Part shown: positions 4,067 to 36,110 of the stretch, piece by piece
Position numbering within the stretch: the stretch's first letter is position 1
How the letters are laid out: every line of letters begins with the position of its first letter
Virus record (IMG/VR): IMGVR_UViG_3300021185_002716
Coordinates: 1 to 56,075 of that record
Reading direction: 5' to 3' (one strand)
Origin: a virus
Taxonomy: Duplodnaviria; Caudoviricetes
DNA: 56,075 nucleotides
Notes under the pieces: generated by a model
Seen by the model: only the letters and a program-made list of their open reading frames with translations
Databases searched by the model: none
Told to the model about the DNA's origin: nothing
Position numbers and translations under genes: made by a program

Positions 4067-4068
4067 TA

Positions 4069-7000: not shown

Positions 7001-9354
7001 TAACATTTTCAGAAACTAAAATACCAGGCAGTAAAGTAAATGGCTTATCAAAATTTAGTGCACTTGATGAGGATAGGCTTGATGAGGTAACGGGTCCGAT
7101 TAGAAAATTAACTCTTACAACAAAAACACAATCCACTGGCACTGTGATGCTTGCTATATCAGAAAACGAAAGCACCGCTATATACCTAGGTGAGTCCCAG
7201 TTGCAAGGAGCATCGAGTGGCAATGAGTTCCTTTCTGTATCAAAAAGTGTGATTGGCACCAAGAATACCTTACAGGGATCTTTTGGTACAATAAACCCAG
7301 AGTCTGTAGTTACAAACGAAGGACGAGCATTTTGGTTTGATGCAAAAAACTCAACAGTGGTCAGGTACACCGGAGAAGGTTTAATGCCTATTGGTGATCT
7401 AAAAATGAAAACTTATTTTAGAGAAAAGGCTAAGGAGGTGTTCAGAAACAACACTATTGTTCCTGCTACTTTTGACGACTTTAACAATGAGTATATAATT
7501 ACATTCCCATCACACGAAGAAACAACAATTGTGTTACAGCAAGATGCGGAATTTGAGTTAAATCCATCAGAAGACTTTACAAACCCCGCAAACGAAGCAT
7601 TAAATGGAACCATACCAGTTTCAATTATTTCGCCATGGGGTATTACAAAATACGTTCAATTTACAAATGGCGTTGGCACTATAGTTTTTGATAGTGAATA
7701 TAAGTTTCAAATACCCTCCAACTTCTTACAGTACCCAACAGGGAACACAACAATAACTGTTGCAAACTCAACGGGGACTCCATTCACGACATCAACAAGC
7801 GGTGGAGTTATACTACATTCCGCAGGAACAGGTGGGCTGACTGTGTCAAATGTTTTTGACGATGTGGCGGCAGTGATTTTAAATTTAACTAGAGTTAACG
7901 ACCCTTTAACGGGAGATATAGTTATAGAACTTCCAAGGGTTTATACAGAGACATCTGCTTTAGAATACTCTTACGAGCAGGGATCAAACCCTACACCTTT
8001 ACTATTTAATACAAATAACACCATTACAACGGATGATGATATTCATCAGGCGACATTTTCTGCTTCCAATGGGTCTGTTTCCATACCACTAAAATCTAAT
8101 GGACACTGGGGGATTGGTGTAGATAGCCCGAATGATGGTTGTTTTTATGTTGACAATGAGACGTTTGAAGATCCAGATCAAATACCAATTGCAAATCTTG
8201 TAGTTGGTGGTGCTCAAAGCAACACGGACTCTAATGGAAATATCATTGCCTACGATCCTTCTACATTTACTGTAACTGTATCTGGAATAGAGGATAATAT
8301 AAATAAAATAATTCTAGATAGTAGGCCAAGAACAACTCCTTTAATGTCCACTTCTGAACCATCTGGCCTTTCACAAACAGGCGTAACATTAAATGCATCC
8401 ATACTTAATGATGGTGCAGGTGAAACTTCTGCATATGGGTTTGTGTGGAGTTTAACAAACGCAGATCCAACCATATCTGATTCATCAGGTACAACGATTA
8501 TAACTACCGCAACGTCTTTATCGGGATCGGTATCTTATAGTACAGATATTACTGGGTTAACTGCAGGTGACCTAATATATTACCAAGCATATGTTACAAC
8601 AGACTTGGGTACATTTTATTCTGGTGCTGTAACGCACGAAACCGCATCATCAAATGTAACCGCACCTTCAGTAACCACAGGATCTTTTAACGCATCAGAC
8701 AATAGTATAACAGGAACTGTAACTGCAAACGGAGGGGATACGGCAGGAACAAATGGAATCACCGAAATGGGCTTTGTTTATAGTACAGTAAACACGATCC
8801 CTGCCCTTGATGATTCGAGTGGAACCACTTCTATCTCTAACCCTTTATCTAATATAACTGGATTTCCACATATATTTAAAAGAACAGGCCTATTACTTAT
8901 TTCAAGTTCCACCTATTATTTTAGAGCATATGCAAAGAATAGTGTAGGAACTGCATATGGGAGTGTAACTCAGGTAACGACAGCAGCCCCAAATGGATTT
9001 ATATCTGGTGTCCAAAGAATTGGCGGAAGTCTTTTAAACCAAAATGGTGGAACTGTTACATTTAGATTTAATAGAGATTCGAATTTCACAACAGCAACAG
9101 GAACTGCAAGAATAAAAGTACTTGGAGACGGAAACCCCATCACGACTAGAACAGTAAATCTATCTGTTTCTGGGTCTTATCAGGATCGTGGTATAAACAT
9201 TCCTATTAACCCTAGTTCATCTAGTATAACTTTATCATTTCAACTTAGTTCCTTTAGCCCATCGTCATTGAACGGTACGGGGCAAACGCTGCCTTTGAAT
9301 ATACCAGGAGGGACGGTACAACAAGCAGGAACGGGTGGGCCTAGTACGCCATAA
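4069..9354 (+). CDS. muzzle / tail stabilisation protein, N-terminal part, with Ig/Fn3-like extension
   Basis: DALN start, LLYWT..EPSRINV, FAYRYIYKDGETSVFSP, NRLFLGN, YQVGIAFYDFAGR, FGTINPES, FWFD, ISD/GMK-like IGDLKMKTYF; the last ~600 aa are Thr/Ser-rich Fn3-like repeats. Confidence 0.75.
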   Translation: MNRSKKTFLTGLNFDDSFYAHRKEDTIDALNAKVVTSDEGKAGSLSNVFGNRLVSNQFLDRFAFPKVIGTYEDSNTNDLYYFIKDDNESYIFKYDVSDNFVYLVLRDQDFNDGYTLNFSKSKPVTGVYFVDKLLYWTGPDEREPSRINVDRGIKMHHSGYTTEETAYTDKLSKHLVTVIRKPPMLPLVTEAQEDTSRDTTFLKSRSLTFAYRYIYKDGETSVFSPSSDMYPNQDVDNANHKTTKKIKVSFPFGEAETYGISDDIDKVQFSVKFDNDTSYFIWKEFDRDRDSGLFANQKRSVAGVLSGDFHNDVLGRAVSDSNSIKLYDTVPTEAQALTVARNRLFLGNFKEGRVNPRSLTASDMTASVDRRILNTSTFNQTTRNDGGTRGFSSSSAYQVGIAFYDFAGRSGGVLTNDSLKVVTQERTLALYNYNKSIKYSFGQNFNTAIPDWATHYSILRTKNLTKDFSLTNLIDSIRYYRFDSSGSFTVNVENVDENGVLNGSFSENEYTDFSPDHEGVAIGLGDLTSFKQGYSFQNGDRVKVLTGSDVYEFAITGVFGKYVTVNLVDLNGINYFNVASLANKDYKFIYEIYSPHKQQENEFFYEAKRYKVVNPGLSNRSLQTLHDDLRGDVYLKSRDADTSTVEPFTWESEDNTANDNEQPIKNASIDYVDNASFYGSGLNDAGSNAGVTTTTEIQDKRIDIKITSTSTNGDKIKWAVRSRNQRMNSANYSYGGSSGTTIVAGTPITLLSGVTITFDAATGHTLNDRWTINLKTESFASNSEMEEHTYQLYSSPPNGIILAGSKIDFSYYEKKKRNLASDQTIEFDFTTQPSDVSQNYNSLEELFWETSFGSSFNNRFDFDKIYFRRGTVTTGGNGGKNQIYILNTTADTASATWPSGSDVTAVHVILKSNREQDNETEGRVSSKGTLKIDEPDDYSYSTELMNPSDDYFLNWVQITGRPNLVPDDVSSQNKVTGITFSETKIPGSKVNGLSKFSALDEDRLDEVTGPIRKLTLTTKTQSTGTVMLAISENESTAIYLGESQLQGASSGNEFLSVSKSVIGTKNTLQGSFGTINPESVVTNEGRAFWFDAKNSTVVRYTGEGLMPIGDLKMKTYFREKAKEVFRNNTIVPATFDDFNNEYIITFPSHEETTIVLQQDAEFELNPSEDFTNPANEALNGTIPVSIISPWGITKYVQFTNGVGTIVFDSEYKFQIPSNFLQYPTGNTTITVANSTGTPFTTSTSGGVILHSAGTGGLTVSNVFDDVAAVILNLTRVNDPLTGDIVIELPRVYTETSALEYSYEQGSNPTPLLFNTNNTITTDDDIHQATFSASNGSVSIPLKSNGHWGIGVDSPNDGCFYVDNETFEDPDQIPIANLVVGGAQSNTDSNGNIIAYDPSTFTVTVSGIEDNINKIILDSRPRTTPLMSTSEPSGLSQTGVTLNASILNDGAGETSAYGFVWSLTNADPTISDSSGTTIITTATSLSGSVSYSTDITGLTAGDLIYYQAYVTTDLGTFYSGAVTHETASSNVTAPSVTTGSFNASDNSITGTVTANGGDTAGTNGITEMGFVYSTVNTIPALDDSSGTTSISNPLSNITGFPHIFKRTGLLLISSSTYYFRAYAKNSVGTAYGSVTQVTTAAPNGFISGVQRIGGSLLNQNGGTVTFRFNRDSNFTTATGTARIKVLGDGNPITTRTVNLSVSGSYQDRGINIPINPSSSSITLSFQLSSFSPSSLNGTGQTLPLNIPGGTVQQAGTGGPSTP

Positions 9355-12805: not shown

Positions 12806-15800
12806 ATGGAAGACGAAGAAATCCTAGGTGTCGATCCCTTTGTTGACTTAAGTATAGAGGATCGGGAAGACAAGTTGACTATACTTGCTGATCGTTTAAG
12901 ACGATCATCGGGAACTGGTATGACTAATTTTGCCATACAAGATATCCAAGGTGTTATACCTGAACTAAACCCTGAACAGTTTCAAGATGCTGTAGCATGG
13001 GGGAACACATTCAATAGAGGTAGGTATGAACAAGGCAATGAATTAAACTCTAAGTTTGAATCTTTATTTCCAGAACTTGACGATTTACAATTTCCTGAAT
13101 ATGAAAACAACAACGGATCCATTGATGTTGTCAACAAACAACTAAACCCAGAAAATGCCCAAAATAAATGGGCAGGAATCCAGTCCGCTATAGATAAAGG
13201 CACTGATATGTACAACAATCAGCAGCCTGATTCGGTGATAGAAAATATAAATCTTCTACCTGAAGGAACAGATGAAGACATAAAAAAGAATTTAATTCAA
13301 TATGGACAGGTGTTAAGACATACTGATCCAGAGTTTAATAAAAGATACACTCCAGGTGAAGACCCATTTCAAACCCCGGAGTCTGCATATGAGTTTACAA
13401 AACAAGCAAGAAACTTTCAAGGAACTAAGTTTAAGGTAAACGGACTTAGGTATGTCGCAAAAAATTATGATAGAAATCTATATGACTATATAGAAAAAAA
13501 TGAAGACTTCTTTGCTTACATGCCGGAACTAAGGGATGATGAGGAGTTTATGAAGATGTATAAACATCACGAAAAGTTAGCGTCAAACTATCATGACCAT
13601 ATTGACAACAATTTTAAAGAATTGTATGATAATGAAATGAGGGATGTGATGCAGACCATGAGGCTTAGTGGTGAGGGAGTAGTGCCTGGAGATTATTTGA
13701 GTTCGTCAATGGCAGTTGGTTTTGGTGCTATTGTAGAATCAGTCGGAAATTTAGCAGGAGGTATAGTAGAGTTTGGAGGGAAGTACGGAACAAACCTTGT
13801 TGGTGGAAAAACAGGTTTAGCCCTAGACGTGGCGTTAGATGCTTTTGCTGCAACTACAATGACTGATGAGCAAAGAGAATCTGTTGATGGTTTAAGCACT
13901 GCATATGAGCAGAGGGTTGGCGAAGTGGCAGATAATATATCTCACTTCTTTTCATCAGACAATTGGAAAGATACAGCAATTGGACAGTTTGCATACGTTC
14001 CAGATCAGGTAGCATCAGCAAGCCTATCAGAAAACCCTGTTTATATTCTACCCATGACTCTTAAAACGGTGGGAGAAATGGCACCTGCAATTGCTGCCGC
14101 TGCGTACACAGGTGGCGGAACATTAGTTGCCGGTGGTATTATGGGGGGTGACCAATTCTTTAAAGCGTATCACCAAACCAATAAGGAGGCAAGAGAACTA
14201 GGAGTAGATGAGGAAGACGCAGAAGCAATGGCCTTAAGTATAGGTCTTGTTACTGGAGGTACTTCTGCCCTATTTAACAACCCTCTTGCAAGGAAGGGTG
14301 CGGCAGCCATGATGGGAATCAGAAGTAATTCCGTAAAGAAGGCTGTTGATGTTTTATCTAAAACAGGAAGCAGGCAGGCTGCCGTAAAAGCAGGAACTAG
14401 AGCATATGCTAAAGAAATAGTTGGCGAAAACTTTGAAGAAATTATTCAAGGTAGTTTTGAAAACTATACTAAATACAAGTATGATGCAAAATCCCCAAAT
14501 CCAGTATACGGTGTAGACAAGTTTATGTCAAAAGATGAGTTTATCAACACCATGATATTGACAACTACAGCAACCACTTTAATGGCTAGTCCTGGTCTAG
14601 GCGTATCTTCTACTCAGTTAGAAAAAGAAGCGTGGACAACAGCGGGATTGGGCTACAAAACATTTGAATCTGCTGTTCAAAAAGAACTAAAAAGAAAGAG
14701 TCCTAAATTCACTGCCGAAGTTGCACAGGGAATGCTTGATAAAGCCAAGAAATATGAGGCTATAGTTTTGCCAATGAAAGAGGCGGGGACTAAGATTAAC
14801 CAAATAGTAGAGGAGGCTGATTTTGTCTACAACGCAATGAATGCTCCGAGAGCAGAGAATGCGGAATCTACCGTAGAGGAAACTATAGAGGAAAAGAAAA
14901 CAGAAATAAAAAATGGCATTCCAAAACCAGGTGCTATTGTGGATGGATCTAAGGTAGTGTCTGTTATAGAAAATATTGGAGACAGTAAAACCGACAAGGA
15001 ACTGTCAGACAAACTTGGAAACATTGAAGGAAGGACTTTTAAAATGAAGAGAGTCGACCTTGAAACTTTATACCAAACAAATGAAAACTTTAAAAACTTT
15101 GTTGATGAGAACCCTGATATGGAGTATGAGGGCTCTCGTAAGAATGCACCCGCTGTTATAGACGAAAGCGGAAATGTATTAGATGGTATGAAAAGAATGG
15201 TTGCTGCTTATAACAGAGGCCAAAAAGGCATTAGAGTTCTCACAGAACAGGAGGCGGTTATATCTAAAGAAAAGCAGTCTGAGGCGGATAGTTTGATTGA
15301 TGAAATTATTTCACCTCCAAAGCCAAGCACAGGACAAGAGGTTGATCCCGAAACAGGAGATGTTAATACAGAGATTGAAAAATTAAGCAACCACTTTCAA
15401 AGGGTGTTCAAAGGATCAGAAGTTACTTATGATCAACAAACCTTTAATGATGCGGCAGCGTCTGTCAATTTAGATCCTAAAAAATTAAAAGGGTTTAGGG
15501 ATAGAAAGACAAATAAAATTTACATTAACCCAAAACTGGCAACGCTAGACACTCCTATTCATGAGTTCGCTCATATATGGGAAGACATGTTATCTGAGGT
15601 TAATCCGGAGGCCCACAAAAAAGCACTTAAATTAATCGAAGGAACTAAGTTTCATAAGGATGCTGTTGCGTCAGGGTATGGTGATAGGTCCTTAAACGAG
15701 GCTTTGGTTCAGGCAATTGGCGAAAAGGGTGCTAAGATATTTAAAGACCCGAAGCGACAATCGGAGTTTGAAAAAATTATAGAGCAGGTAAAGGATATGA

Positions 15801-18800
15801 TTAAGAAGGCTTTATCACTTCCTGCCGAAGCAGACTTTGATATTAAGACATCAAGTCTAAATGAAATGATTGAGTCTAGTGCGGAGAAGTTGATGACCGC
15901 TACGAGCATAGATCCAACAACAGATAACGAAATAGATGTTGATGCTATAGACATGCAAAGGTATAAAAACCCAGAGCGTGAAGCAATATCAGAATTTAAA
16001 GCACTGCAAGAAACTCTTAAGAACGACCCAACGCTATCACTCATAGAGCCCGTGATGAAGGATGGGAGGTATCAGTTTGAAAAACGAGGTAAAAAATTAA
16101 AGATCAAAATATCAAGCCAATCTTATAACATGGTTAATGGTCTTGAAAAATATTTTGAAGGTACGCTTGAACAAAAAATAAATCAGATTGGTGACAAAAT
16201 TGTAGATGAATATAATGCTAATTCCACTGTTGAAGAAGTAGTGAAGGGAATGGGTTGGTATAAAGATCTGCACACAAGAATGAGAAATATTTTTGGAGGT
16301 AGAACTAATTTCTTCGGAAGACTTATTGGGGCAACTTCAGCACAAACAGACGTTAGAAATAATTACAAATATGCTGTAATGGCATTGAAAGGTTATTCAA
16401 ACGGTGCTTACGATTCTTATATAGAAGAATATAAAGAATTTATAGATAGAGTTGAGCAGTATCAAAACGAAGAAGAACTTAACCAATTTTTTAATGAGTA
16501 TAAAGGAAGGGCTATTAATGCTGCAAAGAATTTAGGTCAAAGCACAAAAATATTTGATGTAAGTCCAGACCCGAAAGACATCGATGAAACAAAAAGAAAG
16601 TTGCTGAATCTATGGCCAAAGGCTAATGTATTGTATAGAACAGACAACCCTACTTTAAGGTATGGTATAAATAGTCCGGCTACCGCTAAAGTTTTGGCGG
16701 GTATCTGGTTAAATCAAACTCAACAAACTAAAACAAATAATTTTTATAAAAACGTAGTTGGTATAACAACAAACCCAACTATTGATTTATGGGCCGCCCG
16801 AACAATCAGAAGAATGATTTATGATGGGAATATTGATAGATACAGAATCCCAGAACGTGCAGAAGCCGGTGTTAACGAAAAGGCTTTGGTCAATTCAGGT
16901 AACATATCTGACTATAGACTTGCCGAAGAGGTTATAATTAATGCCTCAGAAAAACTAGGAATGGATCCCGATGATCTTCAGGCATACTTATGGTTTGCTG
17001 AAAAGGATCTATGGCTGAAAAATGGTTGGGCAACTGGGGCCGCAGCAAAGAAAGGAGACTTTAGGGATGAGTCATCTAAAGAGGAAATAACAAGATACTA
17101 TTTAGGTTTAAGCACAGAAAGACCAAGTTACAAGAACCCTGTTTTGGACAATCAAGACAAACTGGAAATGCTTAAAGAAGAGGGGGTTAGTATTGAAAAA
17201 GATTTAAGAGGTCAAGATTTAATTTCTTTAAAAGTAAATACAACCAAATCACAATATTTAAACGATCCTGAAAGAGCATTTGATGCTGAGATGATTGTGG
17301 AGTCGAGCCAAGATATGACTCCTGTATTAAAGAGAGTGATTGAATCTGCAAAAAAATATGAGCAGGAATCTGTTTTCATGTCAGAGGTTTTACCTATTGA
17401 CGAAAGAATGGATCCTGAAACTATGGAGAGAGAGTTAACTAAAAGACCAAATGCAAGACCCGCAGTTGAATTACAGTTTGTAAATCCTTTAAGTTTTGAT
17501 GAGGCAACTAAGTTTGCACAAGACAATATAGAAAAAGAGGGTGTCCAAATTGGTCCTGTGAAAACTGCCATATCTGGTTACACTATAATAACTAATGAGT
17601 CAGGCGATAAGGCTATAGGTATTAAATATCAATTTGTTCCAGAGTTCGTTTTTGAAAATGAAGAGGATATAACAGATGATAATATAAGGCAAGCGTCCAT
17701 AGATTGGGTTAACAACGCAGCAGAAACTCAAATAAATTTAGAGAATAACGAAAATGTTTTATACTTTTACAAACATTATGTAGATACTTTCGTTGCTCAC
17801 AACAATCAGTACAATGAAATTCTAAATAAAATAAAAAATGGATCAGAAGACATATATAAAGGAACTAGCAAAACACGCACAAAGCAATACTACCAATCCA
17901 AAGGTAGATCAAGTATCGAATCAGAAACAAGTTCAGGTATCGATGCACAAAGAAACCAAGATGGAGGAGATAGACCCCGCTTCTCTGGAACTGTTCCGTC
18001 AGATGATGGCGGATCGATATCACAAACTGAACATCGAAGATTAGACACTCAAAAACTTCCGAGTGCATTATCAGGTTTACTAGGAAAACTTAAGGACAAA
18101 GGATTTACTTCTGCTGAATTAATTTACGGTATCAAATCCTATTCATTAAAAGTCAACGGTAAAGAACTTACCACAGAACAGGCACGAGTTGTATTAAGTA
18201 AATACATGAGTGACAATGGATTCAGACAAAGAGGTTTTGAAACTGGATCAGTTGAGAAAGCCAAAGACCAAGACGTAGGAAAAGAAGAGGTATACGATTG
18301 GGTGAACAACAACCCTAACTACTACAAGACTATGGATATGAAAGAAACCATGGATCTTGTATTAGAGGATGTAAATTCAAGAGGTGGTTTTGAAAATGTA
18401 GATGTCTTAAAAGATTTACTTAAGACAGACACAACAGTGAAAGAACTAGCAAGAGTTCAACTAGCACGTCAAGCAGCGTTACATCATTACGGTTTAAAGG
18501 TTAGCAAACTTAGATCAGAAGGTGCATCAACAGCAGAGATAGATTCTGTTATTGAAACCATGGGCCAGATAGAGCGTGCATTGGCAGGGGATGGTACATA
18601 TTCCGGACAAGCGTCTGCCGCACTTAGATCTTGGACCGCTCAAACTGCAACCACTTTAATTGACAGGACTGAACTGGCAATGGAAAAATTCAATGAAGAC
18701 ATGGACAACAAAACTAAGTTTGGCCATTTCATTCATAGGTTATTCGGGGGTAAACAAAAATTAGAAAGCACTACGCTATCTGCCGAACAGAAAAGTAAGA

Positions 18801-21022
18801 TAGAAGAACTGCACAGTATATTGAGAGAGGCTCCAGAAAACAGCGAGTTAGCAAATGCCGCTATGAGGTCGACATATAAGTACATGGATTCATTAGTTCC
18901 CTCTTATACATTGAAAGATACATTCTTCGGGTTGCAATATGCAGCACTTCTTTCAGGTGTTTCCACTCAAATACTTAACATAACTTCAGGATCTGCAAAC
19001 ATTATATTGCAACCACTGATGGAGATGTCGAGAGTAGATAGAATATTCACAGGAGGATATCTTGATTTCATCAGAAGCATAGGGGTTGGCACAACTAAAA
19101 GAGGTTTCGAGCAAGGCCGAAACATGGCAATGGATATTCTTAAAAATGGATCCAGAGTTGACAAGTATCAAAACTCAGAAGCAAATCCGGAGGCGGGAAG
19201 TTATAATGTTCTAGAGACAACAGAATTTAAAGGAGGTAAAAAGAACCCATACAACTATTATAAATTTGTAGGTAGAGTATTGAACGCTACAGATAGATTT
19301 ATAAGTAAGGTTGGTTATGAAGGAAGGTACTTTAATTACCTTCTTGATCAGTTAAGAAAAGATGGTGTACCAAAAAGTGAATTAAGAAAGAGAGCATCTG
19401 ATTTATACTTAGCGACAGAAGTAAGTAGGCATGCCAAAAAAGAGATGGAGTCATTGATGGGTAGACTGCGAGAGGCGGATCCCAACACAGACTTTAGTAA
19501 TATTGAAAAAGTCCGAATGAGAGAACTCATGCACGAAGCACTTGTTGCAAGGTATAGTGAGGATTTTATTGGTAAGCCTGATGCCGAACTAGAGACCATG
19601 AAAGAGAAAGAAAACTTTGACGGGTCTATAGAAGAGTATAAGGAATATCTAAAAGCAATGAAGGAGGCTGAAATCAAAGGGCTTTCTATTGATGCTACCC
19701 TTGCTAGTAATGCTCAAGTGTTTATAGACAATAGACCTGGAAGTCTTGCACAACCAGTTGCATGGATGGCTAACTACATCCGCACATTATCAAACAATCC
19801 AAAAGCAGGCTTTGGTAGGCAACTTGTTTTAAAATCGTTTGTTCCTTTTACAAGCATCATCGGCTCAATCGGAGAGTATATGATAGATGTAGCACCAGGT
19901 ATAGGTGTGGCAAGAGGTTATAAAGCAGAAGATGGATTGGGAGAAAAAGGATCTAGATTGAGAGACGAACAAATGTCAAGAGCGTATTTTGGCACAACGT
20001 CATTTATGGGTCTAGCCGCTTTAGCAGCAATGTCATATGAAGATGACGATGATGATCCGTTCTTTGAAGTTAGTGGTGGAGGTTACAATAACTCAAACCA
20101 ATACACAAGAAACGACATGAAGAACGCTCCACTACCTCCATATACAATTAAGGTTGGTAATAAGACGATGGACTACAGAAACATTATTCCTTTATCAATA
20201 CCCCTTGCTATCATAGGAAACTATATGGAGACACATAAAATGACCGGTGGAAAAGGTGAGGTCTTTGATGATATGATGGAAAGAACACTTATTGCTTATG
20301 CAAACTCTGTTAACCTTATTATGGATTCATCGGTACTTACTTCCGTAAGAGAGTTGAGTGAGGCGGTGTTTGGACAGGTAACTGGTCGTGGATCGCAATT
20401 TGATCCTAACACAGTAGATGATTCTAGTGTTACAAAAACATTGGACAGAATTTCAAAGACAGCCATAAGATCTGTTGGAGGTACCCTATTAAGGCCAATG
20501 CCACAAAATCTAAATTTGTTTAGACAGGTAACAAAGATCTTTGATGCTACATCATATAGTGCGGGCGATGTAAAGAACGCATTGTTATATGCCGCAGGTC
20601 TAAGTCAGATTGCAGGACAACCTAGGATAGATGCTTTTGGTGAAAAGACTAAGAGTTACCCTGGAGAAACTGTGATACCATACACTCACTGGCTCAATGT
20701 TAGAGGTGATGACAGAAGGTGGCAGTTTATTGACAAGCACAATGCTTACCCAGGTAAAATCCAAAACAGACCTATGAGGGTTGGTAATGAAATGAGAACC
20801 CTTACTGATGATGAACTTTATCAGCATCAAATAACAACGGGTCAAGAGTTTAGTAGAATGTTGACTAATTATATTAAAGGACAAGGGCAATTGGAAGACA
20901 GAATATTAACCACATCTGGAAGATCACAAAGCATGCATAAGATGAATATCCAAAAAATGTGGAGAGCGGCACAAGCAAAATCAAAACTTAAGAATGTAAA
21001 CACCTGGAGAAACAACGATTAA
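12806..21022 (+). CDS. giant polyvalent internal virion protein (ParB-like, zincin HExxH, glycosylase-like and helical domains)
   Basis: 2738 aa; PAVID..GNVLDGMKR (ParB-like), IYINP...TPIHEFAH (zincin), GWY...SAQT...KT.NFY.N...TIDLW...LQAYLW block; hydrophobic Gly/Ala segments. Confidence 0.7.
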   Translation: MEDEEILGVDPFVDLSIEDREDKLTILADRLRRSSGTGMTNFAIQDIQGVIPELNPEQFQDAVAWGNTFNRGRYEQGNELNSKFESLFPELDDLQFPEYENNNGSIDVVNKQLNPENAQNKWAGIQSAIDKGTDMYNNQQPDSVIENINLLPEGTDEDIKKNLIQYGQVLRHTDPEFNKRYTPGEDPFQTPESAYEFTKQARNFQGTKFKVNGLRYVAKNYDRNLYDYIEKNEDFFAYMPELRDDEEFMKMYKHHEKLASNYHDHIDNNFKELYDNEMRDVMQTMRLSGEGVVPGDYLSSSMAVGFGAIVESVGNLAGGIVEFGGKYGTNLVGGKTGLALDVALDAFAATTMTDEQRESVDGLSTAYEQRVGEVADNISHFFSSDNWKDTAIGQFAYVPDQVASASLSENPVYILPMTLKTVGEMAPAIAAAAYTGGGTLVAGGIMGGDQFFKAYHQTNKEARELGVDEEDAEAMALSIGLVTGGTSALFNNPLARKGAAAMMGIRSNSVKKAVDVLSKTGSRQAAVKAGTRAYAKEIVGENFEEIIQGSFENYTKYKYDAKSPNPVYGVDKFMSKDEFINTMILTTTATTLMASPGLGVSSTQLEKEAWTTAGLGYKTFESAVQKELKRKSPKFTAEVAQGMLDKAKKYEAIVLPMKEAGTKINQIVEEADFVYNAMNAPRAENAESTVEETIEEKKTEIKNGIPKPGAIVDGSKVVSVIENIGDSKTDKELSDKLGNIEGRTFKMKRVDLETLYQTNENFKNFVDENPDMEYEGSRKNAPAVIDESGNVLDGMKRMVAAYNRGQKGIRVLTEQEAVISKEKQSEADSLIDEIISPPKPSTGQEVDPETGDVNTEIEKLSNHFQRVFKGSEVTYDQQTFNDAAASVNLDPKKLKGFRDRKTNKIYINPKLATLDTPIHEFAHIWEDMLSEVNPEAHKKALKLIEGTKFHKDAVASGYGDRSLNEALVQAIGEKGAKIFKDPKRQSEFEKIIEQVKDMIKKALSLPAEADFDIKTSSLNEMIESSAEKLMTATSIDPTTDNEIDVDAIDMQRYKNPEREAISEFKALQETLKNDPTLSLIEPVMKDGRYQFEKRGKKLKIKISSQSYNMVNGLEKYFEGTLEQKINQIGDKIVDEYNANSTVEEVVKGMGWYKDLHTRMRNIFGGRTNFFGRLIGATSAQTDVRNNYKYAVMALKGYSNGAYDSYIEEYKEFIDRVEQYQNEEELNQFFNEYKGRAINAAKNLGQSTKIFDVSPDPKDIDETKRKLLNLWPKANVLYRTDNPTLRYGINSPATAKVLAGIWLNQTQQTKTNNFYKNVVGITTNPTIDLWAARTIRRMIYDGNIDRYRIPERAEAGVNEKALVNSGNISDYRLAEEVIINASEKLGMDPDDLQAYLWFAEKDLWLKNGWATGAAAKKGDFRDESSKEEITRYYLGLSTERPSYKNPVLDNQDKLEMLKEEGVSIEKDLRGQDLISLKVNTTKSQYLNDPERAFDAEMIVESSQDMTPVLKRVIESAKKYEQESVFMSEVLPIDERMDPETMERELTKRPNARPAVELQFVNPLSFDEATKFAQDNIEKEGVQIGPVKTAISGYTIITNESGDKAIGIKYQFVPEFVFENEEDITDDNIRQASIDWVNNAAETQINLENNENVLYFYKHYVDTFVAHNNQYNEILNKIKNGSEDIYKGTSKTRTKQYYQSKGRSSIESETSSGIDAQRNQDGGDRPRFSGTVPSDDGGSISQTEHRRLDTQKLPSALSGLLGKLKDKGFTSAELIYGIKSYSLKVNGKELTTEQARVVLSKYMSDNGFRQRGFETGSVEKAKDQDVGKEEVYDWVNNNPNYYKTMDMKETMDLVLEDVNSRGGFENVDVLKDLLKTDTTVKELARVQLARQAALHHYGLKVSKLRSEGASTAEIDSVIETMGQIERALAGDGTYSGQASAALRSWTAQTATTLIDRTELAMEKFNEDMDNKTKFGHFIHRLFGGKQKLESTTLSAEQKSKIEELHSILREAPENSELANAAMRSTYKYMDSLVPSYTLKDTFFGLQYAALLSGVSTQILNITSGSANIILQPLMEMSRVDRIFTGGYLDFIRSIGVGTTKRGFEQGRNMAMDILKNGSRVDKYQNSEANPEAGSYNVLETTEFKGGKKNPYNYYKFVGRVLNATDRFISKVGYEGRYFNYLLDQLRKDGVPKSELRKRASDLYLATEVSRHAKKEMESLMGRLREADPNTDFSNIEKVRMRELMHEALVARYSEDFIGKPDAELETMKEKENFDGSIEEYKEYLKAMKEAEIKGLSIDATLASNAQVFIDNRPGSLAQPVAWMANYIRTLSNNPKAGFGRQLVLKSFVPFTSIIGSIGEYMIDVAPGIGVARGYKAEDGLGEKGSRLRDEQMSRAYFGTTSFMGLAALAAMSYEDDDDDPFFEVSGGGYNNSNQYTRNDMKNAPLPPYTIKVGNKTMDYRNIIPLSIPLAIIGNYMETHKMTGGKGEVFDDMMERTLIAYANSVNLIMDSSVLTSVRELSEAVFGQVTGRGSQFDPNTVDDSSVTKTLDRISKTAIRSVGGTLLRPMPQNLNLFRQVTKIFDATSYSAGDVKNALLYAAGLSQIAGQPRIDAFGEKTKSYPGETVIPYTHWLNVRGDDRRWQFIDKHNAYPGKIQNRPMRVGNEMRTLTDDELYQHQITTGQEFSRMLTNYIKGQGQLEDRILTTSGRSQSMHKMNIQKMWRAAQAKSKLKNVNTWRNND

Positions 21023-32330: not shown

Positions 32331-32912
32331 TTAAGTTAGTGATCTTTTTAGTTCATCCCTTAACATTCCGTATTCAACCTCTAGCCACTCAACAAATTGC
32401 TTTTCTTCTCTTTTCGGTATTGCTATGGTTACCGATGATGAAAACACGTTAGTAGTTGGGCTTGAGATCACCGATACACGGACAGGACAATGGACGTGTC
32501 CATTCATAATTTCTTCTACAAGATCATTCAAGTCATGCTTCCACGGGACATCACTCCAGTAGTCCGTACCCCATCCCGACTCTATCTCCTTCCAACCATT
32601 GGACAGATCTATTTCATAGTATCCTCTCCATGCATTTGAAGATTTCCAAACCACATCATCTATTGACAAATGCTCATGATCATCCTCTCCCCAGATTTCT
32701 TCATGGTAATCGTTGAATGCCATACCTAGTCCAGGAACAAAAAAGAATTTCTTACTTTCCTCGTCTTGGGGTGACCAAGTTAGTATCTGTGTTGCACTCT
32801 CCCACATAGAATGGTAGCAGTGTTCACATATTTGGTTACCATCCTTATCAAAGGAGTGCCAATCATCTTGGTCATAAGTCTCCTCGCACGAAGTACATTT
32901 AAATTTATCCAT
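32331..32912 (-). CDS. acidic early protein with N-terminal Zn ribbon
   Basis: CTSC...CEHC; starts 30 nt after the hammerhead 1 cut site. Confidence 0.7.
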   Translation of the reverse strand: MDKFKCTSCEETYDQDDWHSFDKDGNQICEHCYHSMWESATQILTWSPQDEESKKFFFVPGLGMAFNDYHEEIWGEDDHEHLSIDDVVWKSSNAWRGYYEIDLSNGWKEIESGWGTDYWSDVPWKHDLNDLVEEIMNGHVHCPVRVSVISSPTTNVFSSSVTIAIPKREEKQFVEWLEVEYGMLRDELKRSLT

Positions 32913-32937
32913 TTTGTTTTAGTTTAAATTATTATTT

Positions 32938-33019
32938 ACAAAGACGGAGGGCTGAAAATCATGCTCGTTCAAAACATATCCCTCCGTTTCGCCTGAATCT
33001 CACAGGCTCATCAGTTTGC
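32938..33019 (-). ncRNA. type I hammerhead ribozyme HHR1
   Basis: GCAAA-CUGAUGA-GCCUG(UGAGAUU)CAGGC-GAAA-CGGAGGG(large loop)CCCUCCG-UC^UUUGU; all three stems pair; predicted cut 32943/32942. Confidence 0.9.
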
Positions 33020-33199
33020 TTATTTTTTAAAAAAGTATTTATCTTCCTTATCTATTACTTCGACTCCAATGATCTTTGATGTGCCATGATCTTTGTTTGC
33101 CTTATTCAAATAGTTGTTGAGGTGTCTATCGTCATTAAAGTCTCTCACATAAGAGCGATAGTTTCCTGACCAGTTTTTAATATCTATTCTAACCTTCAT
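33020..33199 (-). CDS. 59-aa hypothetical protein (not in ORF track)
   Basis: MKVRIDIKNWSGNYRSYVRDFNDDRHLNNYLNKANKDHGTSKIIGVEVIDKEDKYFFKK*; its stop abuts HHR1. Confidence 0.65.
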   Translation of the reverse strand: MKVRIDIKNWSGNYRSYVRDFNDDRHLNNYLNKANKDHGTSKIIGVEVIDKEDKYFFKK

Positions 33200-33211
33200 C
33201 GTTAACTTTAT

Positions 33212-33565
33212 TTAAGTTTTAATTATATCTGTTATTAATTCACACACCACATAGTAAGATGCTTTTATGCTTTGAGCATCAAACTCTTGATAAAGAATGT
33301 CATTACCTTTTACTATTAGTGACTGCCAATCTTTATCTATTGGTTGATAGTTTTTCTCGAAAGTATATCCAAGAGTTTCTATCTTTTCTATTACTGGCAT
33401 CAGCCAATCCCAAGATTTGTGAAATTGCATTGGTGCAATCGTACCATCATTGTATTTAGGTGAGTAGCATTTGTTATGATTTACCTCGTACCCCATAAAT
33501 TCTGCTATAAGTCTATTACTCCTACCTTCCATATTAATTGTTTTAGTTTTCATATTAGTATGCAC
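33212..33565 (-). CDS. hypothetical phage protein (NRLIAEFMG...FHKSWDWLMPVIEKIE family)
   Basis: Recurring phage motif recognised by eye; function unknown. Confidence 0.7.
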   Translation of the reverse strand: MHTNMKTKTINMEGRSNRLIAEFMGYEVNHNKCYSPKYNDGTIAPMQFHKSWDWLMPVIEKIETLGYTFEKNYQPIDKDWQSLIVKGNDILYQEFDAQSIKASYYVVCELITDIIKT

Positions 33566-33851
33566 TTACAGGTTTTAATTGATTTTGTTCAAACGTCTCC
33601 CATTCCCATTCGTCATCGTGAACAGTTAGACTGTGGAAATACTTCTGTAGGTTTTCAGCAATGTATTCAAGTTCATCACTTTCTCTCCAATCTTTAATGG
33701 TGCAGTCACCATCTATTCTGCCGAGCATTCCTCCACCCAAATAGTTTTGGTATGCCGTCATCTTTTCTCCAAAATACCCAAAGTTGTCAAGGGCAATCTC
33801 TATTCCTCCACCTCGGTAGGAAATCTCTTGTCTGATGATATTAAATTTCAT
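33555..33851 (-). CDS. hypothetical early protein
   Basis: 98 aa; starts 27 nt after the HHR2 cut site. Confidence 0.7.
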   Translation of the reverse strand: MKFNIIRQEISYRGGGIEIALDNFGYFGEKMTAYQNYLGGGMLGRIDGDCTIKDWRESDELEYIAENLQKYFHSLTVHDDEWEWETFEQNQLKPVSAY

Positions 33852-33873
33852 TTTGTTTTAGTTTAAATTATTT

Positions 33874-33931
33874 AACCTGACTCGATCCGGAGACCGAGTT
33901 TCGCCTGAATCTCACAGGCTCATCAGAGGTT
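33874..33931 (-). ncRNA. type I hammerhead ribozyme HHR2
   Basis: AACCU-CUGAUGA-GCCUG(UGAGAUU)CAGGC-GAAA-CUCGGUC(UCCG)GAUCGAG-UC^AGGUU; predicted cut 33879/33878. Confidence 0.95.
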
Positions 33932-34390
33932 TTATTTTTCTACAAAGTCAAACTTCTGGCGGAGGTTACCCTCGTGGATTGCAGTAGGAAATAGTTCTTG
34001 CATAAGTTCTAATTCTTCACCATACAGGAATCTGTCTCCATCTTTTTTCAATCTCTCCTCCATTTCCTTCCCGATCCAAGAGTCTTGTAGAAGTACTCTG
34101 TAAACATCTTTGCTTATGTCTTTCCAACCCCTCTCTTTATCCCAAAGAGTATCGTCTGCGTAGTCACCATCTATTGTGATATTATCACCCGACCATCGTC
34201 CGATGATCTCAGACTCCGAAGGATGGTCTCCACCTCCACGACCATTGCCGTTTGCTAGAAGTAAAGAGAGACCTTGTAGCATGCCTCTACCATCAGATGT
34301 AAATTCCATTAACTTCATACCATTCCCAAACGTGTGTGGGCTTAGGTATTCCTTTTTAGTTTTGTTGAACACTTTATAGTATTGTCCCAT
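33932..34390 (-). CDS. hypothetical early protein (MGQYY...GRWxGD family)
   Basis: 152 aa; flanked by HHR3 and HHR2. Confidence 0.75.
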   Translation of the reverse strand: MGQYYKVFNKTKKEYLSPHTFGNGMKLMEFTSDGRGMLQGLSLLLANGNGRGGGDHPSESEIIGRWSGDNITIDGDYADDTLWDKERGWKDISKDVYRVLLQDSWIGKEMEERLKKDGDRFLYGEELELMQELFPTAIHEGNLRQKFDFVEK

Positions 34391-34413
34391 GACTTTAGTT
34401 TTAATTATTATTT

Positions 34414-34477
34414 AACCTGACTCGGTCTGTATCTATTGACCGAGTTTCGTCCCATCACAGGGTACTCATCAGAGGTT
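34414..34477 (-). ncRNA. type I hammerhead ribozyme HHR3
   Basis: AACCU-CUGAUGA-GU(A)CCC(UGUGAU)GGGAC-GAAA-CUCGGUC(10 nt)GACCGAG-UC^AGGUU; predicted cut 34419/34418. Confidence 0.92.
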
Positions 34478-34981
34478 TTACTTGATTTCTGTAAAGTGAT
34501 TAATAAGCATATTCAAGCCCGAAACAATGCCTTTGTGTTCTGACATAGTGTGTGAATCGTTTACCCATTCATCATCTGAAACAATATCTATCATTACATT
34601 TTTGATATCCTGAATTGAGTAAGTCTTCTCCGAGTTATTGATAAGAGTTTTGTAGAAGTCGTACACCTCTATTACCTTGCTCATTGTTTGGTCGAAGAAT
34701 GATAATTGGTGGGGGGTGACCTTGTCCTTGTACTTATCCATAAAGACCCTTAGATACTCTACATCTAAATAAACTCCTTCAGGAAGATGACCATCGAGTA
34801 AATCATAAAGACCTCCCTCAATTCTAGTGATGGTATTATCCCAGTCATTAATTGGAATAACTTTACGAAAGGAATACTCTATACCTGAAACGTCTTTGAT
34901 TAAGCCCTTAATATGTGTTAGATGTATAGGGTCTTTTACTTTTGATGTTGGGACTTTTGGTTGTGGTTTTGTAGTTGTCAT
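34478..34981 (-). CDS. hypothetical early protein
   Basis: 167 aa; flanked by HHR4 and HHR3. Confidence 0.7.
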   Translation of the reverse strand: MTTTKPQPKVPTSKVKDPIHLTHIKGLIKDVSGIEYSFRKVIPINDWDNTITRIEGGLYDLLDGHLPEGVYLDVEYLRVFMDKYKDKVTPHQLSFFDQTMSKVIEVYDFYKTLINNSEKTYSIQDIKNVMIDIVSDDEWVNDSHTMSEHKGIVSGLNMLINHFTEIK

Positions 34982-35005
34982 GATTTTCAGTTTAAATTAT
35001 TATTT

Positions 35006-35057
35006 GACATTGACGCTCCGAAGAGCGTTTCGACCATTAAGGTCTCGTCAGAATGTC
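35006..35057 (-). ncRNA. type I hammerhead ribozyme HHR4
   Basis: GACAUU-CUGACGA-GACC(UUAAU)GGUC-GAAA-CGCUC(UUCG)GAGCG-UC^AAUGUC; predicted cut 35012/35011. Confidence 0.95.
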
Positions 35058-35068
35058 TTTAGTCTCCC

Positions 35069-35386
35069 TTATCTCATGCCCAATTGTGATCTTTGCTCCC
35101 TTTCAAAGTCAGCATCTGTGTTTGCACTGTCAATTTGTGATCTTGTAGTTGTCGTAATTTCTGTTAACTTGGTAACCTCCGTAATCCCGTCAGTCATTGA
35201 TAGACTAAAACCTGCCCGGGTCAAGTTATTGATGACACTAGCACAGCAATCTATTATTCCAATCTTAAATTCCGATGATCCAAGCCCTCCCACGAAGTTA
35301 TCTTTTGGCTTGTTGATGATGATTTTTGTTGAGTGATTTTTTGATATGATCTCAATCGCTTGTAAAAAAGTCTCTAATTTTCTCAT
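35069..35386 (-). CDS. hypothetical protein, first gene of the early operon
   Basis: 105 aa; same AAUUUAAACU.GAAAAUC-AUG leader type as the downstream genes. Confidence 0.65.
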   Translation of the reverse strand: MRKLETFLQAIEIISKNHSTKIIINKPKDNFVGGLGSSEFKIGIIDCCASVINNLTRAGFSLSMTDGITEVTKLTEITTTTRSQIDSANTDADFEREQRSQLGMR

Positions 35387-35427
35387 GATTTTCTAGTTTA
35401 AATTAATATTTGTTTTGAACGATGGTA

Positions 35428-35435
35428 CAAATATA
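35428..35435 (-). promoter_or_regulatory. Bacteroidota primary-sigma -7 element (TAnnTTTG)
   Basis: TATATTTG on the minus strand ~42 nt upstream of the 35386 start; no clean -33 TTG found. Confidence 0.65.
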
Positions 35436-35592
35436 AAACAAAAAATCAATACGTCCGACACGGCTAACTAAAATAAATCGTCTCAACAGATCTAAAATAC
35501 ATGAAATTTTTTTTTGGGGGGTAATGAACAAACGTACAAATTAGGGGGTGTTCAACTCCCGTTTACTATAGTTGGCGGGATATCGAAACTTG

Positions 35593-35664
35593 TACCTTCG
35601 GAAGGAATCGAACCTTCATCACTGGTTTAGAAGACCAGGGTTTTATCCGTTAAACTACGAAGGC
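35593..35664 (-). tRNA. tRNA-Arg(UCU), CCA not encoded
   Basis: Acceptor GCCTTCG/CGAAGGT, anticodon arm CTGGT-CT TCT AA-ACCAG, T arm GAAGG TTCGATT CCTTC. Confidence 0.93.
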
Positions 35665-35690
35665 GATTTTGGGGCGACCTTATCAAATTA

Positions 35691-36110
35691 CTATAGGCAA
35701 GTATACAAGTCCCGTATAAGGTAATTATATATGCGTCTTAACTGTATACGGCCATAGACAGAAATACAAAACTGTTGACCCTTAAATTGTTTCTTCTTGG
35801 TTAACCTGTCAACGAAACCTAATTGAAGTAGTAACTTATGTTCCCTGTAGATAGGTGTTTGATTTGATCGATTAGGTAACCAGTCCATCTTCTCACAGAT
35901 ATCAATTACATCAGGCATTGTGTAGAAGGTGAAGTCACTCTTATTCTCCGACTCTTTAATGGCACACGCTAAGAAGACCATGACCGCTCTGGACGATAGT
36001 TCACCATCGATACTTCGAAGGTATTTATTGATAGAATGTTTATGGCTGAATAACTCAACCAGTTTCTTGGCTACAACCATCAGGCAAATAGAAGGGTTAA
36101 CACAATACAA
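35691..36110 (-). CDS. winged-helix-like DNA-binding protein (start uncertain)
   Basis: IYREHKLLLQLGFVDR...FCISVYGR, MarR/wHTH-like. Confidence 0.55.
   Translation of the reverse strand: MYCVNPSICLMVVAKKLVELFSHKHSINKYLRSIDGELSSRAVMVFLACAIKESENKSDFTFYTMPDVIDICEKMDWLPNRSNQTPIYREHKLLLQLGFVDRLTKKKQFKGQQFCISVYGRIQLRRIYNYLIRDLYTCL

What the first reader, a model, noticed from the sequence alone, without database searches (positions are those of the whole stretch)
33879..34418. The 540-nt HHR3-HHR2 fragment could circularise into a one-gene circular mRNA
Seen: HHR2 and HHR3 share the same stem I (AACCU/AGGUU). The excised fragment therefore starts with 5'-OH AGGUU and ends with AACCU-core-GUC cyclic phosphate, so its ends can rebuild a complete hammerhead. 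It contains exactly the 152-aa MGQYY gene and its leader. The other fragments have mismatched stem I halves. Established: tandem hammerheads yield circular RNAs in retrozymes and viroid-like RNAs, and RtcB joins these end types. Inference: a phage-encoded circular mRNA.
Basis: inference. Interest (0 to 1): 0.75.

Follow-up and report, generated by a model that had tools for sequence, protein, structure and literature searches.

The report
Hammerhead-flanked phage gene; circle unproven
Two real self-cutting hammerhead RNA motifs with interchangeable ends bracket one small gene in a marine phage operon; they most likely just chop a long message into single-gene pieces, and nothing yet shows that the piece closes into a circle.

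Summary
Observation confirmed. Four type I hammerheads lie on the minus strand between stop codons and a repeated A-rich leader, against 0.02 expected by chance. HHR2 and HHR3 both have stem I AACCU/AGGUU. The piece between their cut sites (34418..33879) is 540 nt: 28-nt leader, 152-aa ORF, then HHR3.

The circular-mRNA reading is possible but unsupported.
- RNA contigs were too sparse to test it.
- All three frames of the circle hold stops, and stem I is a weak 5-bp helix.
- No RNA ligase was recognised in the phage.
- Among 39 loci of this gene, only three lineages have a matched pair, and two of those enclose more than one gene.
- Perreault 2011 described such clusters, raised circles and did not detect them.

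New here: in 86 neighbouring type I pairs from 47 phage contig groups, fragment ends are stem-I compatible in 49 (57%) versus 3.8% between contigs. The closed hairpins differ. So matching is a general, unexplained habit, not special to this gene.

The scan raised the same circular-RNA idea for tandem hammerheads on other genomes (8 notes shown). Their follow-ups favoured linear processing or found nothing supporting a circle.

The parts
35006..35057 (-). HHR1, type I hammerhead. Stem I GACAUU/AAUGUC, core CUGACGA, cut between 35012 and 35011.
   Evidence: Rfam Hammerhead_1 scores 21.9 bits, below the threshold of 34. The copy in L005 differs by one loop base.
34414..34477 (-). HHR2, type I hammerhead. 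Stem I AACCU/AGGUU, cut between 34419 and 34418. It starts directly after the TAA stop of the 167-aa gene.
   Evidence: The L005 copy differs at two loop positions only.
33879..34418 (-). The 540-nt piece released by HHR2 and HHR3. It begins 5'-OH AGGUU and ends with the HHR3 core and GUC carrying a 2',3'-cyclic phosphate.
   Evidence: length 540, starts AGGTT, ends GTC.
34391..34418 (-). 28-nt A-rich leader of the MGQYY gene. It contains one copy of the repeated leader motif (34396-34407).
33932..34390 (-). ORF of 152 aa (MGQYY...). It belongs to a widespread phage protein family of unknown function.
   Evidence: ORF; 1207 homologues with E <= 0.001 among 1647 candidates. No Pfam or PHROG hit. 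Model pLDDT 87 with no solved fold match.
33874..33931 (-). HHR3, type I hammerhead. Stem I AACCU/AGGUU, cut between 33879 and 33878. Its stem I and stem III match HHR2; its stem II and loop are identical to HHR4.
   Evidence: Rfam RAGATH-1-hammerhead scores 24.6 bits, below the threshold of 56.3.
32938..33019 (-). HHR4, type I hammerhead with a long stem III arm. Stem I GCAAA/UUUGU, cut between 32943 and 32942.
   Evidence: Stem II shows a compensatory U-A to C-G change in L005.
34478..34981 (-). Upstream 167-aa gene, the sole ORF of the 593-nt HHR1-HHR2 piece.
33020..33851 (-). Three ORFs (98, 117 and 59 aa) carried on the 936-nt HHR3-HHR4 piece.
35394..35405 (-). Fifth copy of the leader motif TAATTTAAACTR, before the 105-aa gene and without a hammerhead. 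The other copies are at 34988-34999, 34396-34407, 33859-33870 and 32920-32931, each just after a hammerhead.
   Evidence: 8 matches with at most 1 mismatch against a mean of 2.64 in shuffles. Five lie on the minus strand in this cluster.
35592..35664 (-). tRNA-Arg (anticodon TCT) on the same strand, upstream of the cluster.

Best explanation
HHR2 and HHR3 are two of four self-cleaving type I hammerheads in a block of small genes on the minus strand of a marine, crAss-like phage.

Each ribozyme sits exactly between the stop codon of one gene and the conserved A-rich leader of the next. As the long transcript is made, each one folds and cuts after its GUC. This releases linear single-gene or few-gene mRNAs. 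Each piece starts with a 5'-OH a few bases before the leader and ends in a compact ribozyme fold with a 2',3'-cyclic phosphate.

That lets each gene have its own stability and translation. The 540-nt MGQYY RNA is one such linear piece.

What is shown: the motifs, their placement and their conservation. What is inferred: cleavage in vivo and the consequences for stability and translation.

The shared stem I of HHR2 and HHR3 reflects their mosaic, paralogous origin. It may also reflect extra constraint on stem I, which overlaps the upstream stop codon and forms the 5' end of the leader. On this reading it is not an adaptation for circle closure.
For: Motifs and placement
- There are four complete type I motifs on the gene strand against 0.02 expected.
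- All four lie in intergenic gaps directly after TAA stops and before the repeated leader.
- No terminator-like site lies on the minus strand between 35700 and 32900, which fits one long transcript.

Conservation
- Against the 91%-identical relative L005, all 7 differences inside the four ribozymes are in loops or form one compensatory stem II pair.

The same architecture is general
- Of 186 unique phage type I hammerheads, 152 have an upstream ORF stop within 30 nt of the core.
- 152 have an ATG ORF within 80 nt after the cut, with a median leader of 28 nt.

Paralogy
- HHR2 and HHR3 share stem I, stem III and the start of the leader. HHR3 and HHR4 share an identical stem II and loop.

Literature
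- Prophage hammerhead clusters flanking single genes were described and shown to cleave in vitro and in E. coli. Processing into single-gene mRNAs was proposed (PMC3088659, passages; review PMC6765202, passages).
Against: Cleavage was not observed here, and Rfam thresholds are not reached.

Simple paralogy does not explain the wider pattern.
- Neighbouring hammerheads share stem I in 49 of 86 pairs.
- Their stem II and III hairpins are only slightly more alike than in unrelated phages: 0.71/0.61 against a background of 0.56/0.48.
- Only 1 of 49 compatible pairs is a whole-ribozyme duplicate.

Among pairs whose stems differ, 8 stay compatible only in the fragment-end direction and 2 only in the reciprocal direction. 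This is not significant, but it points the other way.
Confidence: 0.75

Rival explanations
1. Circular mRNA. After both cuts, the 5' AGGUU of the 540-nt piece pairs with the AACCU of HHR3. The ends are then joined by the reverse hammerhead reaction or by a host RtcB-type ligase, giving a circular, exonuclease-resistant mRNA for the MGQYY protein.
For: - The ends match exactly.
- Matching of fragment ends is strongly enriched among neighbouring phage type I hammerheads: 49 of 86 pairs against 3.8% of 123,876 between-contig pairs. It occurs without sharing of the closed hairpins.
- There is an 8:2 excess of pairs compatible only in the circle direction.
- L008 has a type III pair with identical open stem III around the homologous gene.
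- Retrozyme monomers with type I hammerheads are circularised by RtcB at 30-80% (PMC7229834, passages).
Against: - There is no direct evidence of a junction.
- The helix is 5 bp, worth -3.4 kcal/mol at 37 C and -4.9 at 20 C. The MFE fold leaves the 5' end free.
- Self-ligation of comparable RNAs is 1-3%.
- No RtcB or RNA-ligase Pfam hit was found in the 65 window ORFs scanned. The host is unknown.
- Only 1 of 3 fragments in this cluster is matched.
- 37 of 86 neighbour pairs elsewhere are not matched, including diverged paralogues that kept their own pairing but lost cross pairing.
- The gene's relatives mostly lack a matched pair.
- All three frames on the circle have stops (15, 4, 11), so there is no endless ORF.
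- Circles were sought in prophage clusters and not detected (PMC3088659).
Confidence: 0.12
2. Cassette boundaries at the DNA level. The short shared flanks (stop codon plus stem I half, and stem I half plus leader) mark gene-cassette borders where phages gain, lose or swap small genes by recombination. Shared stem I is kept because it belongs to these junction modules.
For: - Relative to L005, the window lacks about 290 nt holding the tail of the MGQYY gene and a 90-aa ORF. The difference ends exactly at the TAA plus HHR3 boundary.
- L005 in turn lacks the 117-aa gene.
- Hammerheads around the MGQYY gene come and go among relatives and change type.
Against: Shared segments are only 5-20 nt, short for homologous recombination. 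The upstream end of the window/L005 indel is inside the gene, not at a hammerhead. No recombination junctions were tested.
Confidence: 0.08
3. The motifs are inactive look-alikes or relics, and the operon is translated from an uncut polycistronic mRNA.
For: All Rfam hits are below the gathering scores. No cleavage data exist for this phage.
Against: - Core bases are perfect in all four, with 4 observed against 0.02 expected.
- Changes against L005 avoid the core and include a compensatory pair.
- Placement is identical in hundreds of phage loci.
Confidence: 0.04

Closest known systems
Clustered hammerhead ribozymes flanking single genes or short gene blocks in prophages (Perreault et al. 2011, PMC3088659; passages read)
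   Same: Several hammerheads lie in the gene orientation in phage intergenic gaps. They flank one gene or a few genes whose identity varies between relatives. The proposed role is processing of long transcripts into single-gene mRNAs. The circular-product idea was already raised there.
   Different: This is a marine crAss-like phage with four type I motifs placed stop-to-leader. I add counts showing that neighbours usually share the open stem I but not the closed hairpins. None of my six literature searches listed a report of this. The supplements of that paper are PDFs I could not read and may show it.
Retrozymes and small type I hammerhead circRNAs of animals and plants (Cervera and de la Pena 2020, PMC7229834, passages; PMC5680766, search listing only)
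   Same: Two same-sense hammerheads release a monomer with 5'-OH and 2',3'-cyclic phosphate ends that can rebuild a ribozyme. RtcB joins such ends.
   Different: Retrozyme units are repeated, non-coding and highly structured, and their circles are documented. Here the unit is a unique protein-coding gene. The two ribozymes share only stem I and stem III. The fold z-score is -1.73. No circle has been seen.
Self-cleaving ribozymes in 5' UTRs of RNA viruses that enable translation initiation (PMC13725137; abstract only)
   Same: A type I hammerhead sits just upstream of an ORF, so cleavage creates the 5' end of the translated RNA.
   Different: That is cap-independent translation in eukaryotic hosts. 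Here the system is a bacterial phage operon with a 28-nt A-rich leader, and no translation data exist.

Membership tests
Hammerhead ribozyme, type I | Conserved core CUGANGA ... GAAA ... UH at the junction of three helices | tested here: met
   All four have CUGA(U/C)GA, GAAAC and GUC.
Hammerhead ribozyme, type I | Stems II and III closed by loops; stem I open and formed by the flanks | tested here: met
   Detector stem sizes for I/II/III are 6/4/5, 5/5/7, 5/5/7 and 5/5/14 bp. Stems II and III of HHR3 form in the MFE fold of the 540-nt RNA.
Hammerhead ribozyme, type I | More frequent than chance and conserved with structure-preserving changes | tested here: met
   4 observed against 0.02 in shuffles. 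The 7 differences against L005 are in loops or compensatory; the sample is small.
Hammerhead ribozyme, type I | Score at or above the Rfam gathering threshold (RF00163, RF00008, RF03152) | tested here: not met
   Best scores are 21.9 against 34, 26.3 against 48.5, and 24.6 against 56.3 bits. In the two hammerhead alignments printed (Hammerhead_3 at HHR2, RAGATH-1 at HHR3), the core letters align.
Hammerhead ribozyme, type I | Site-specific self-cleavage | not testable with these tools
   Needs in vitro transcription or end-mapping.
Phage/prophage hammerhead clusters (Perreault 2011) | Several same-sense hammerheads in phage intergenic gaps, flanking single genes or short blocks of varying identity | tested here: met
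   The fragments hold 1, 1 and 3 ORFs. Gene content differs in L005.
Retrozyme / viroid-like hammerhead circRNA | Ends of the excised unit can rebuild a complete ribozyme | tested here: met
   The cross stem I is 5 bp, the same as each ribozyme's own stem.
Retrozyme / viroid-like hammerhead circRNA | Covalently closed circular RNA detected | tested here: inconclusive
   Only sparse contig pieces from four RNA runs could be laid, and they cannot test for a circle (details under Tried and rejected).
Retrozyme / viroid-like hammerhead circRNA | Repeated unit with the same whole ribozyme at both ends (tandem repeat or LTR) | tested here: not met
   The stem II and III hairpins of HHR2 and HHR3 are 65% and 62% identical. 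The intervening sequence is a unique gene.
Retrozyme / viroid-like hammerhead circRNA | Non-coding, strongly self-paired RNA | tested here: not met
   459 of the 540 nt are the ORF (456 nt coding 152 aa plus the stop codon). Fold z-score is -1.73.
Retrozyme / viroid-like hammerhead circRNA | A ligase for 2',3'-cyclic phosphate and 5'-OH ends is available | tested here: inconclusive
   No RtcB or RNA-ligase Pfam family was found among 65 window ORFs. The host and its ligases are unknown.

The most novel reading that the evidence does not exclude
Tandem type I hammerheads of phages keep interchangeable stem I halves on purpose. This would let excised single-gene RNAs bring their own ends together (or the ends of other pieces) and be re-joined by the ribozyme or a host RtcB. 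The 540-nt MGQYY RNA would then be a phage-encoded circular mRNA, one case of a widespread RNA-level ligation system.
Probability: 0.12. Interest if true: 0.8.

Novelty: new member of a known kind. Interest (0 to 1): 0.42.

Why it matters
The role of the many hammerheads in phage genomes is still open (reviews PMC6765202 and PMC6155905; passages).

This locus is a clean, compact case for bench work: four ribozymes, three defined fragments, and only one fragment with matched ends. That gives built-in controls for asking whether matched ends lead to ligation.

The wider count made here gives a concrete, falsifiable handle on that question. Neighbouring hammerheads share the open stem about 15 times more often than unrelated ones, while their closed hairpins diverge.

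A confirmed natural circular mRNA in a phage would be new biology and of interest for circular-RNA technology. If the fragments are linear, the locus is an ordinary member of a class known since 2011.

Tried and rejected
RNA evidence
- The run search returned 11 runs, none holding more than 0.20 of the sampled words.
- I laid four marine RNA runs (X1, X2, X5, X6). They gave 16 contig pieces of 37-343 nt at depth 2-6.3, mostly identical to the window.
- No joints were reported, and no piece spans any of the four cut sites.
- Contigs at this depth show neither a circle nor its absence, and they may derive from DNA. I draw no conclusion from them.

Junction search not run
- Searching public contigs for the back-junction would need a joined sequence, which I did not type.

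Other searches that gave nothing
- Phage GenBank records: no blastn match to 32900-35700.
- Pfam and PHROGs on the eight cluster ORFs: nothing except one weak PHROG hit of unknown function.
- MGQYY protein: no PDB sequence match, Foldseek PDB E > 5, and VIA-align Z <= 4.3 on the C-terminal helices only. Two uncharacterised phage proteins matched in BFVD. Its function stays unknown.
- Genome-contig scan: only 2 type I hammerheads by my detector, so it added almost nothing.
- Earlier-findings look-up by place: empty.

Ideas considered and set aside
- Rolling-circle translation: rejected, since all frames of the circle have stops.
- Whole-ribozyme duplication as the cause of shared stem I across phages: rejected, since only 1 of 49 compatible pairs fits it.
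- Direction asymmetry (8 circle-only against 2 skip-only pairs; about 6-7 against 2 by independent contig groups): not significant, so kept only as a lead.
- Sigma-70 promoter scan: not above shuffles (26 against 19.5 +/- 4.7).

Full report
WHAT IS THERE

The window is a 56,075-base IMG/VR virus record, estimated 88% complete. It has crAss-like hallmarks:
- a Crassvirus muzzle-protein C-terminal domain (E 3.4e-9);
- an SU10-type major capsid protein;
- ORFs of 1761 and 2738 aa;
- a primase-helicase and a YqaJ recombinase.

Near-identical pieces occur in marine RNA libraries of four studies. Homologues of its genes come largely from marine sets such as TARA.

The finding lies in a run of small minus-strand genes downstream of a tRNA-Arg(TCT) at 35664..35592. 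Read on the minus strand, four complete type I hammerheads appear.

| Motif | Span | Stem I | Cut |
|---|---|---|---|
| HHR1 | 35057..35006 | GACAUU/AAUGUC | 35012 / 35011 |
| HHR2 | 34477..34414 | AACCU/AGGUU | 34419 / 34418 |
| HHR3 | 33931..33874 | AACCU/AGGUU | 33879 / 33878 |
| HHR4 | 33019..32938 | GCAAA/UUUGU | 32943 / 32942 |

HHR4 has a long stem III arm. Each has CUGA(U/C)GA, a closed stem II, GAAAC, a closed stem III and GUC.

HHR2, HHR3 and HHR4 begin directly after the TAA of the preceding ORF; HHR1 begins 11 nt after its TAA. All four are followed by the same A-rich leader. The motif TAATTTAAACTR has five minus-strand copies in this cluster: four just after the hammerheads and one before the first gene.

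CHECK OF THE OBSERVATION

- The HHR2-HHR3 piece is 34418..33879, 540 nt. It starts AGGUU and ends ...GUC.
- It holds a 28-nt leader, the 152-aa ORF 34390..33932 and 53 nt of HHR3.
- The neighbouring pieces (593 nt and 936 nt) have unmatched ends, with cross stems of 1 and 0 bp.

The motifs are not chance.
- A detector requiring the core plus all three stems finds 4 in the window. The mean in 100 dinucleotide shuffles is 0.02, and 2 of 100 shuffles had one.
- A looser pattern gave 9 rows against a mean of 1.94.

Rfam misses them at gathering thresholds and lists only sub-threshold hits. Membership therefore rests on the defining features, not on an Rfam score.

Against the closest relative, L005 (91% protein identity), the four ribozymes show 7 differences. 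Five are single changes in loops, and one is a compensatory U-A to C-G pair in stem II of HHR4. None touches the core.

HOW HHR2 AND HHR3 RELATE

They share stem I, the stem III helix (UCGGUC paired with GAYCGA) and the first 12 nt of the leader. They differ in stem II and loop III. HHR3 and HHR4 share an identical 29-nt core-stem II-loop block. The copies are therefore mosaic paralogues, and the shared stem I of this particular pair needs no special selection.

RELATIVES OF THE GENE

The MGQYY protein has 1207 homologues with E <= 0.001 among 1647 candidates. It has no Pfam or PHROG family. Its model is confident (pLDDT 87) but matches no solved fold.

I examined 38 related loci: 7 viral and 31 of 32 metagenomic. 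The 32nd, L371, covers only the gene's end. Results:
- Eleven loci have a hammerhead within 30 nt upstream of the gene: type I in 9 and type III in 2. L007 has a type III-like motif with almost no stem II, seen by eye only.
- Two loci (L007, L340) have a type I overlapping the gene's end, with a different stem I.
- Twenty-one loci have no hammerhead called anywhere in the locus.

A matched pair around the gene occurs only in three lineages.
- The window.
- L005, which has the same stem I but two genes in between because of an extra 90-aa ORF.
- L008, which has two type III motifs with identical open stem III and an identical upstream GGGGAC...GUCCCC hairpin, but different stems I and II. Several ORFs lie between them.

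L006, at 84% identity, has no flanking hammerhead. So an upstream ribozyme recurs, but 'one gene between matched ribozymes' is not conserved.

A WIDER PATTERN

I pooled loci from eight IMG/VR scans, one metagenome scan and one genome scan. This gave 859 loci and 2.58 Mb. My detector unique type I hammerheads in 263 contig groups.

Placement is uniform. In the first 186 hammerheads:
- 152 have an upstream ORF stop within 30 nt of the core. The commonest cases are a stop ending 5 nt before the core (38), the core's own first UGA acting as the stop (34), and a stop directly abutting the core (15).
- 152 have an ATG ORF within 80 nt after the cut, with a median leader of 28 nt.

There are 86 neighbouring same-strand pairs in 47 contig groups. 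I dropped duplicate loci of the same contig and kept the window lineage and the L040/L081 lineage once each. In 49 pairs (57%), the 3' half of the upstream motif pairs with the 5' half of the downstream motif as well as their own stems do. This holds for at least one pair in 28 groups and for all pairs in 20 groups. The figure for ordered pairs from different groups is 4,698 of 123,876, or 3.8%.

The 86 pairs fall into these classes:

| Class | Pairs |
|---|---|
| Identical stems | 28 |
| Different stems, compatible both ways | 13 |
| Compatible only in the fragment-end direction | 8 |
| Compatible only in the reciprocal direction | 2 |
| Incompatible | 35 |

The sharing is specific to stem I. 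The figures below come from one search, which was run on 85 pairs because one window pair was missing from that run.

| Pair set | Stem II hairpin identity | Stem III hairpin identity |
|---|---|---|
| Compatible pairs | 0.71 | 0.61 |
| Incompatible pairs | 0.66 | 0.56 |
| Different groups (background) | 0.56 | 0.48 |

Only 1 of 49 compatible pairs is a whole-ribozyme duplicate, and 42 of 49 have at least one hairpin below 70% identity.

Matched ends are therefore a common habit of phage hammerhead clusters, not a peculiarity of this gene. Two readings fit.
- Stem I diverges slowly because both halves are embedded in other signals. The 5' half overlaps the last codons and the stop. The 3' half is the first bases of a leader that is itself more alike between neighbours (4.7 of 8 positions against 3.2, on the first 33 pairs).
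- Pairing of fragment ends is selected.

They include families such as L199, L266 and L278, where copies kept their own pairing but drifted apart. The 8:2 asymmetry hints at the second but is not significant.

THE CIRCLE HYPOTHESIS

For:
- the ends match;
- the enrichment above;
- RtcB circularises retrozyme monomers with the same end chemistry at 30-80% (PMC7229834, passages).

Against:
- Stem I is a 5-bp helix of -3.4 kcal/mol at 37 C and -4.9 at 20 C.
- The MFE and centroid folds of the linear RNA leave the 5' end unpaired. The RNA is not unusually structured, with z = -1.73.
- Ribozyme self-circularisation of comparable RNAs is 1-3%.
- None of 65 window ORFs matches an RNA-ligase family, and the host is unknown.
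- All three frames of the circle contain stops, so a circle would gain stability only.
- Perreault et al. raised circular or spliced products for prophage clusters and could not detect them (PMC3088659, passage, data not shown there).

No direct test was possible (see Tried and rejected).

COMPARISON WITH WHAT IS KNOWN

The locus is a member of the class 'clustered hammerheads flanking phage genes', described in 2011. It works like those: processing of a polycistronic RNA, inferred here.

It resembles retrozymes only in having two same-sense ribozymes whose ends can rebuild one. It fails the other defining features tested, namely a repeated unit and a non-coding, strongly paired RNA.

Earlier notes of this scan on other genomes raised the same circular-RNA idea. 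Their follow-ups favoured linear processing or found nothing supporting a circle. I treat them as leads only.

None of my six literature searches listed a report that neighbouring phage hammerheads share the open stem while their hairpins differ. I read only passages of six papers and one abstract, and could not read PDF supplements, so this may already be in print.

VERDICT

The best explanation is linear mRNA processing (0.75). A circular mRNA remains an untested possibility (about 0.12). The cross-genome stem I pattern is the most interesting by-product and makes the question testable.

Noticed in passing
L013, L064, L079, L083/L252, L141, L192, L297 and others (IMG/VR loci): Neighbouring type I hammerheads in many phage contigs carry the same stem I (for example GGUUAA/UUAACC or GUCUAA/UUAGAC) while stems II and III differ. 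49 of 86 neighbour pairs are end-compatible against a 3.8% background.
   Followed up: yes
window 35394-35405, 34988-34999, 34396-34407, 33859-33870, 32920-32931 (minus strand): A leader motif, TAATTTAAACTR, is repeated five times in this gene cluster. Four copies lie right after hammerheads. One lies before the first gene without a hammerhead, just downstream of a TATATTTG that resembles (from memory) a Bacteroidota -7 promoter element.
   Followed up: partly
L005:1150-1445 versus window 33927-33945: The closest relative has a longer MGQYY gene (164 aa) plus an extra overlapping 90-aa ORF. The roughly 290-nt difference ends exactly at the TAA plus HHR3 boundary. L005 also lacks the window's 117-aa gene (33212-33565).
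   Followed up: partly
L008:2905-2975 and 4056-4125: Two type III hammerheads flank the MGQYY homologue and further ORFs. They share the open stem III, the GUC and an upstream GGGGAC...GUCCCC hairpin, but have unrelated stems I and II. This is the type III counterpart of the stem I pattern.
   Followed up: partly
186 phage type I hammerheads: The upstream ORF's stop codon has preferred positions: ending 5 nt before CUGAUGA (38 cases), being the core's own first UGA (34), or abutting the core (15). A terminating ribosome would therefore sit on stem I and the core.
   Followed up: partly
window 33932-34390 (minus strand): The MGQYY protein family is large (1207 homologues) with invariant G, W, D and GDY positions. 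Its model is confident (pLDDT 87) with no solved-structure match. Its only structural neighbours are two uncharacterised phage proteins, one labelled as SWIM-type domain-containing.
   Followed up: partly
window 33928-34072, run X5 record 11: A 151-nt contig from an oligo-dT RNA library stops matching at 33928, inside the 5' half of HHR3 stem I, with 6 further letters that do not fit the window. The letters were not shown, so this is unexplained.
   Followed up: no
window 4069-9354 and 12806-21022 (plus strand): Two giant ORFs (1761 and 2738 aa) lie next to a muzzle-protein homologue, as in crAss-like phages. The 2738-aa ORF has only a DUF7178 hit.
   Followed up: no
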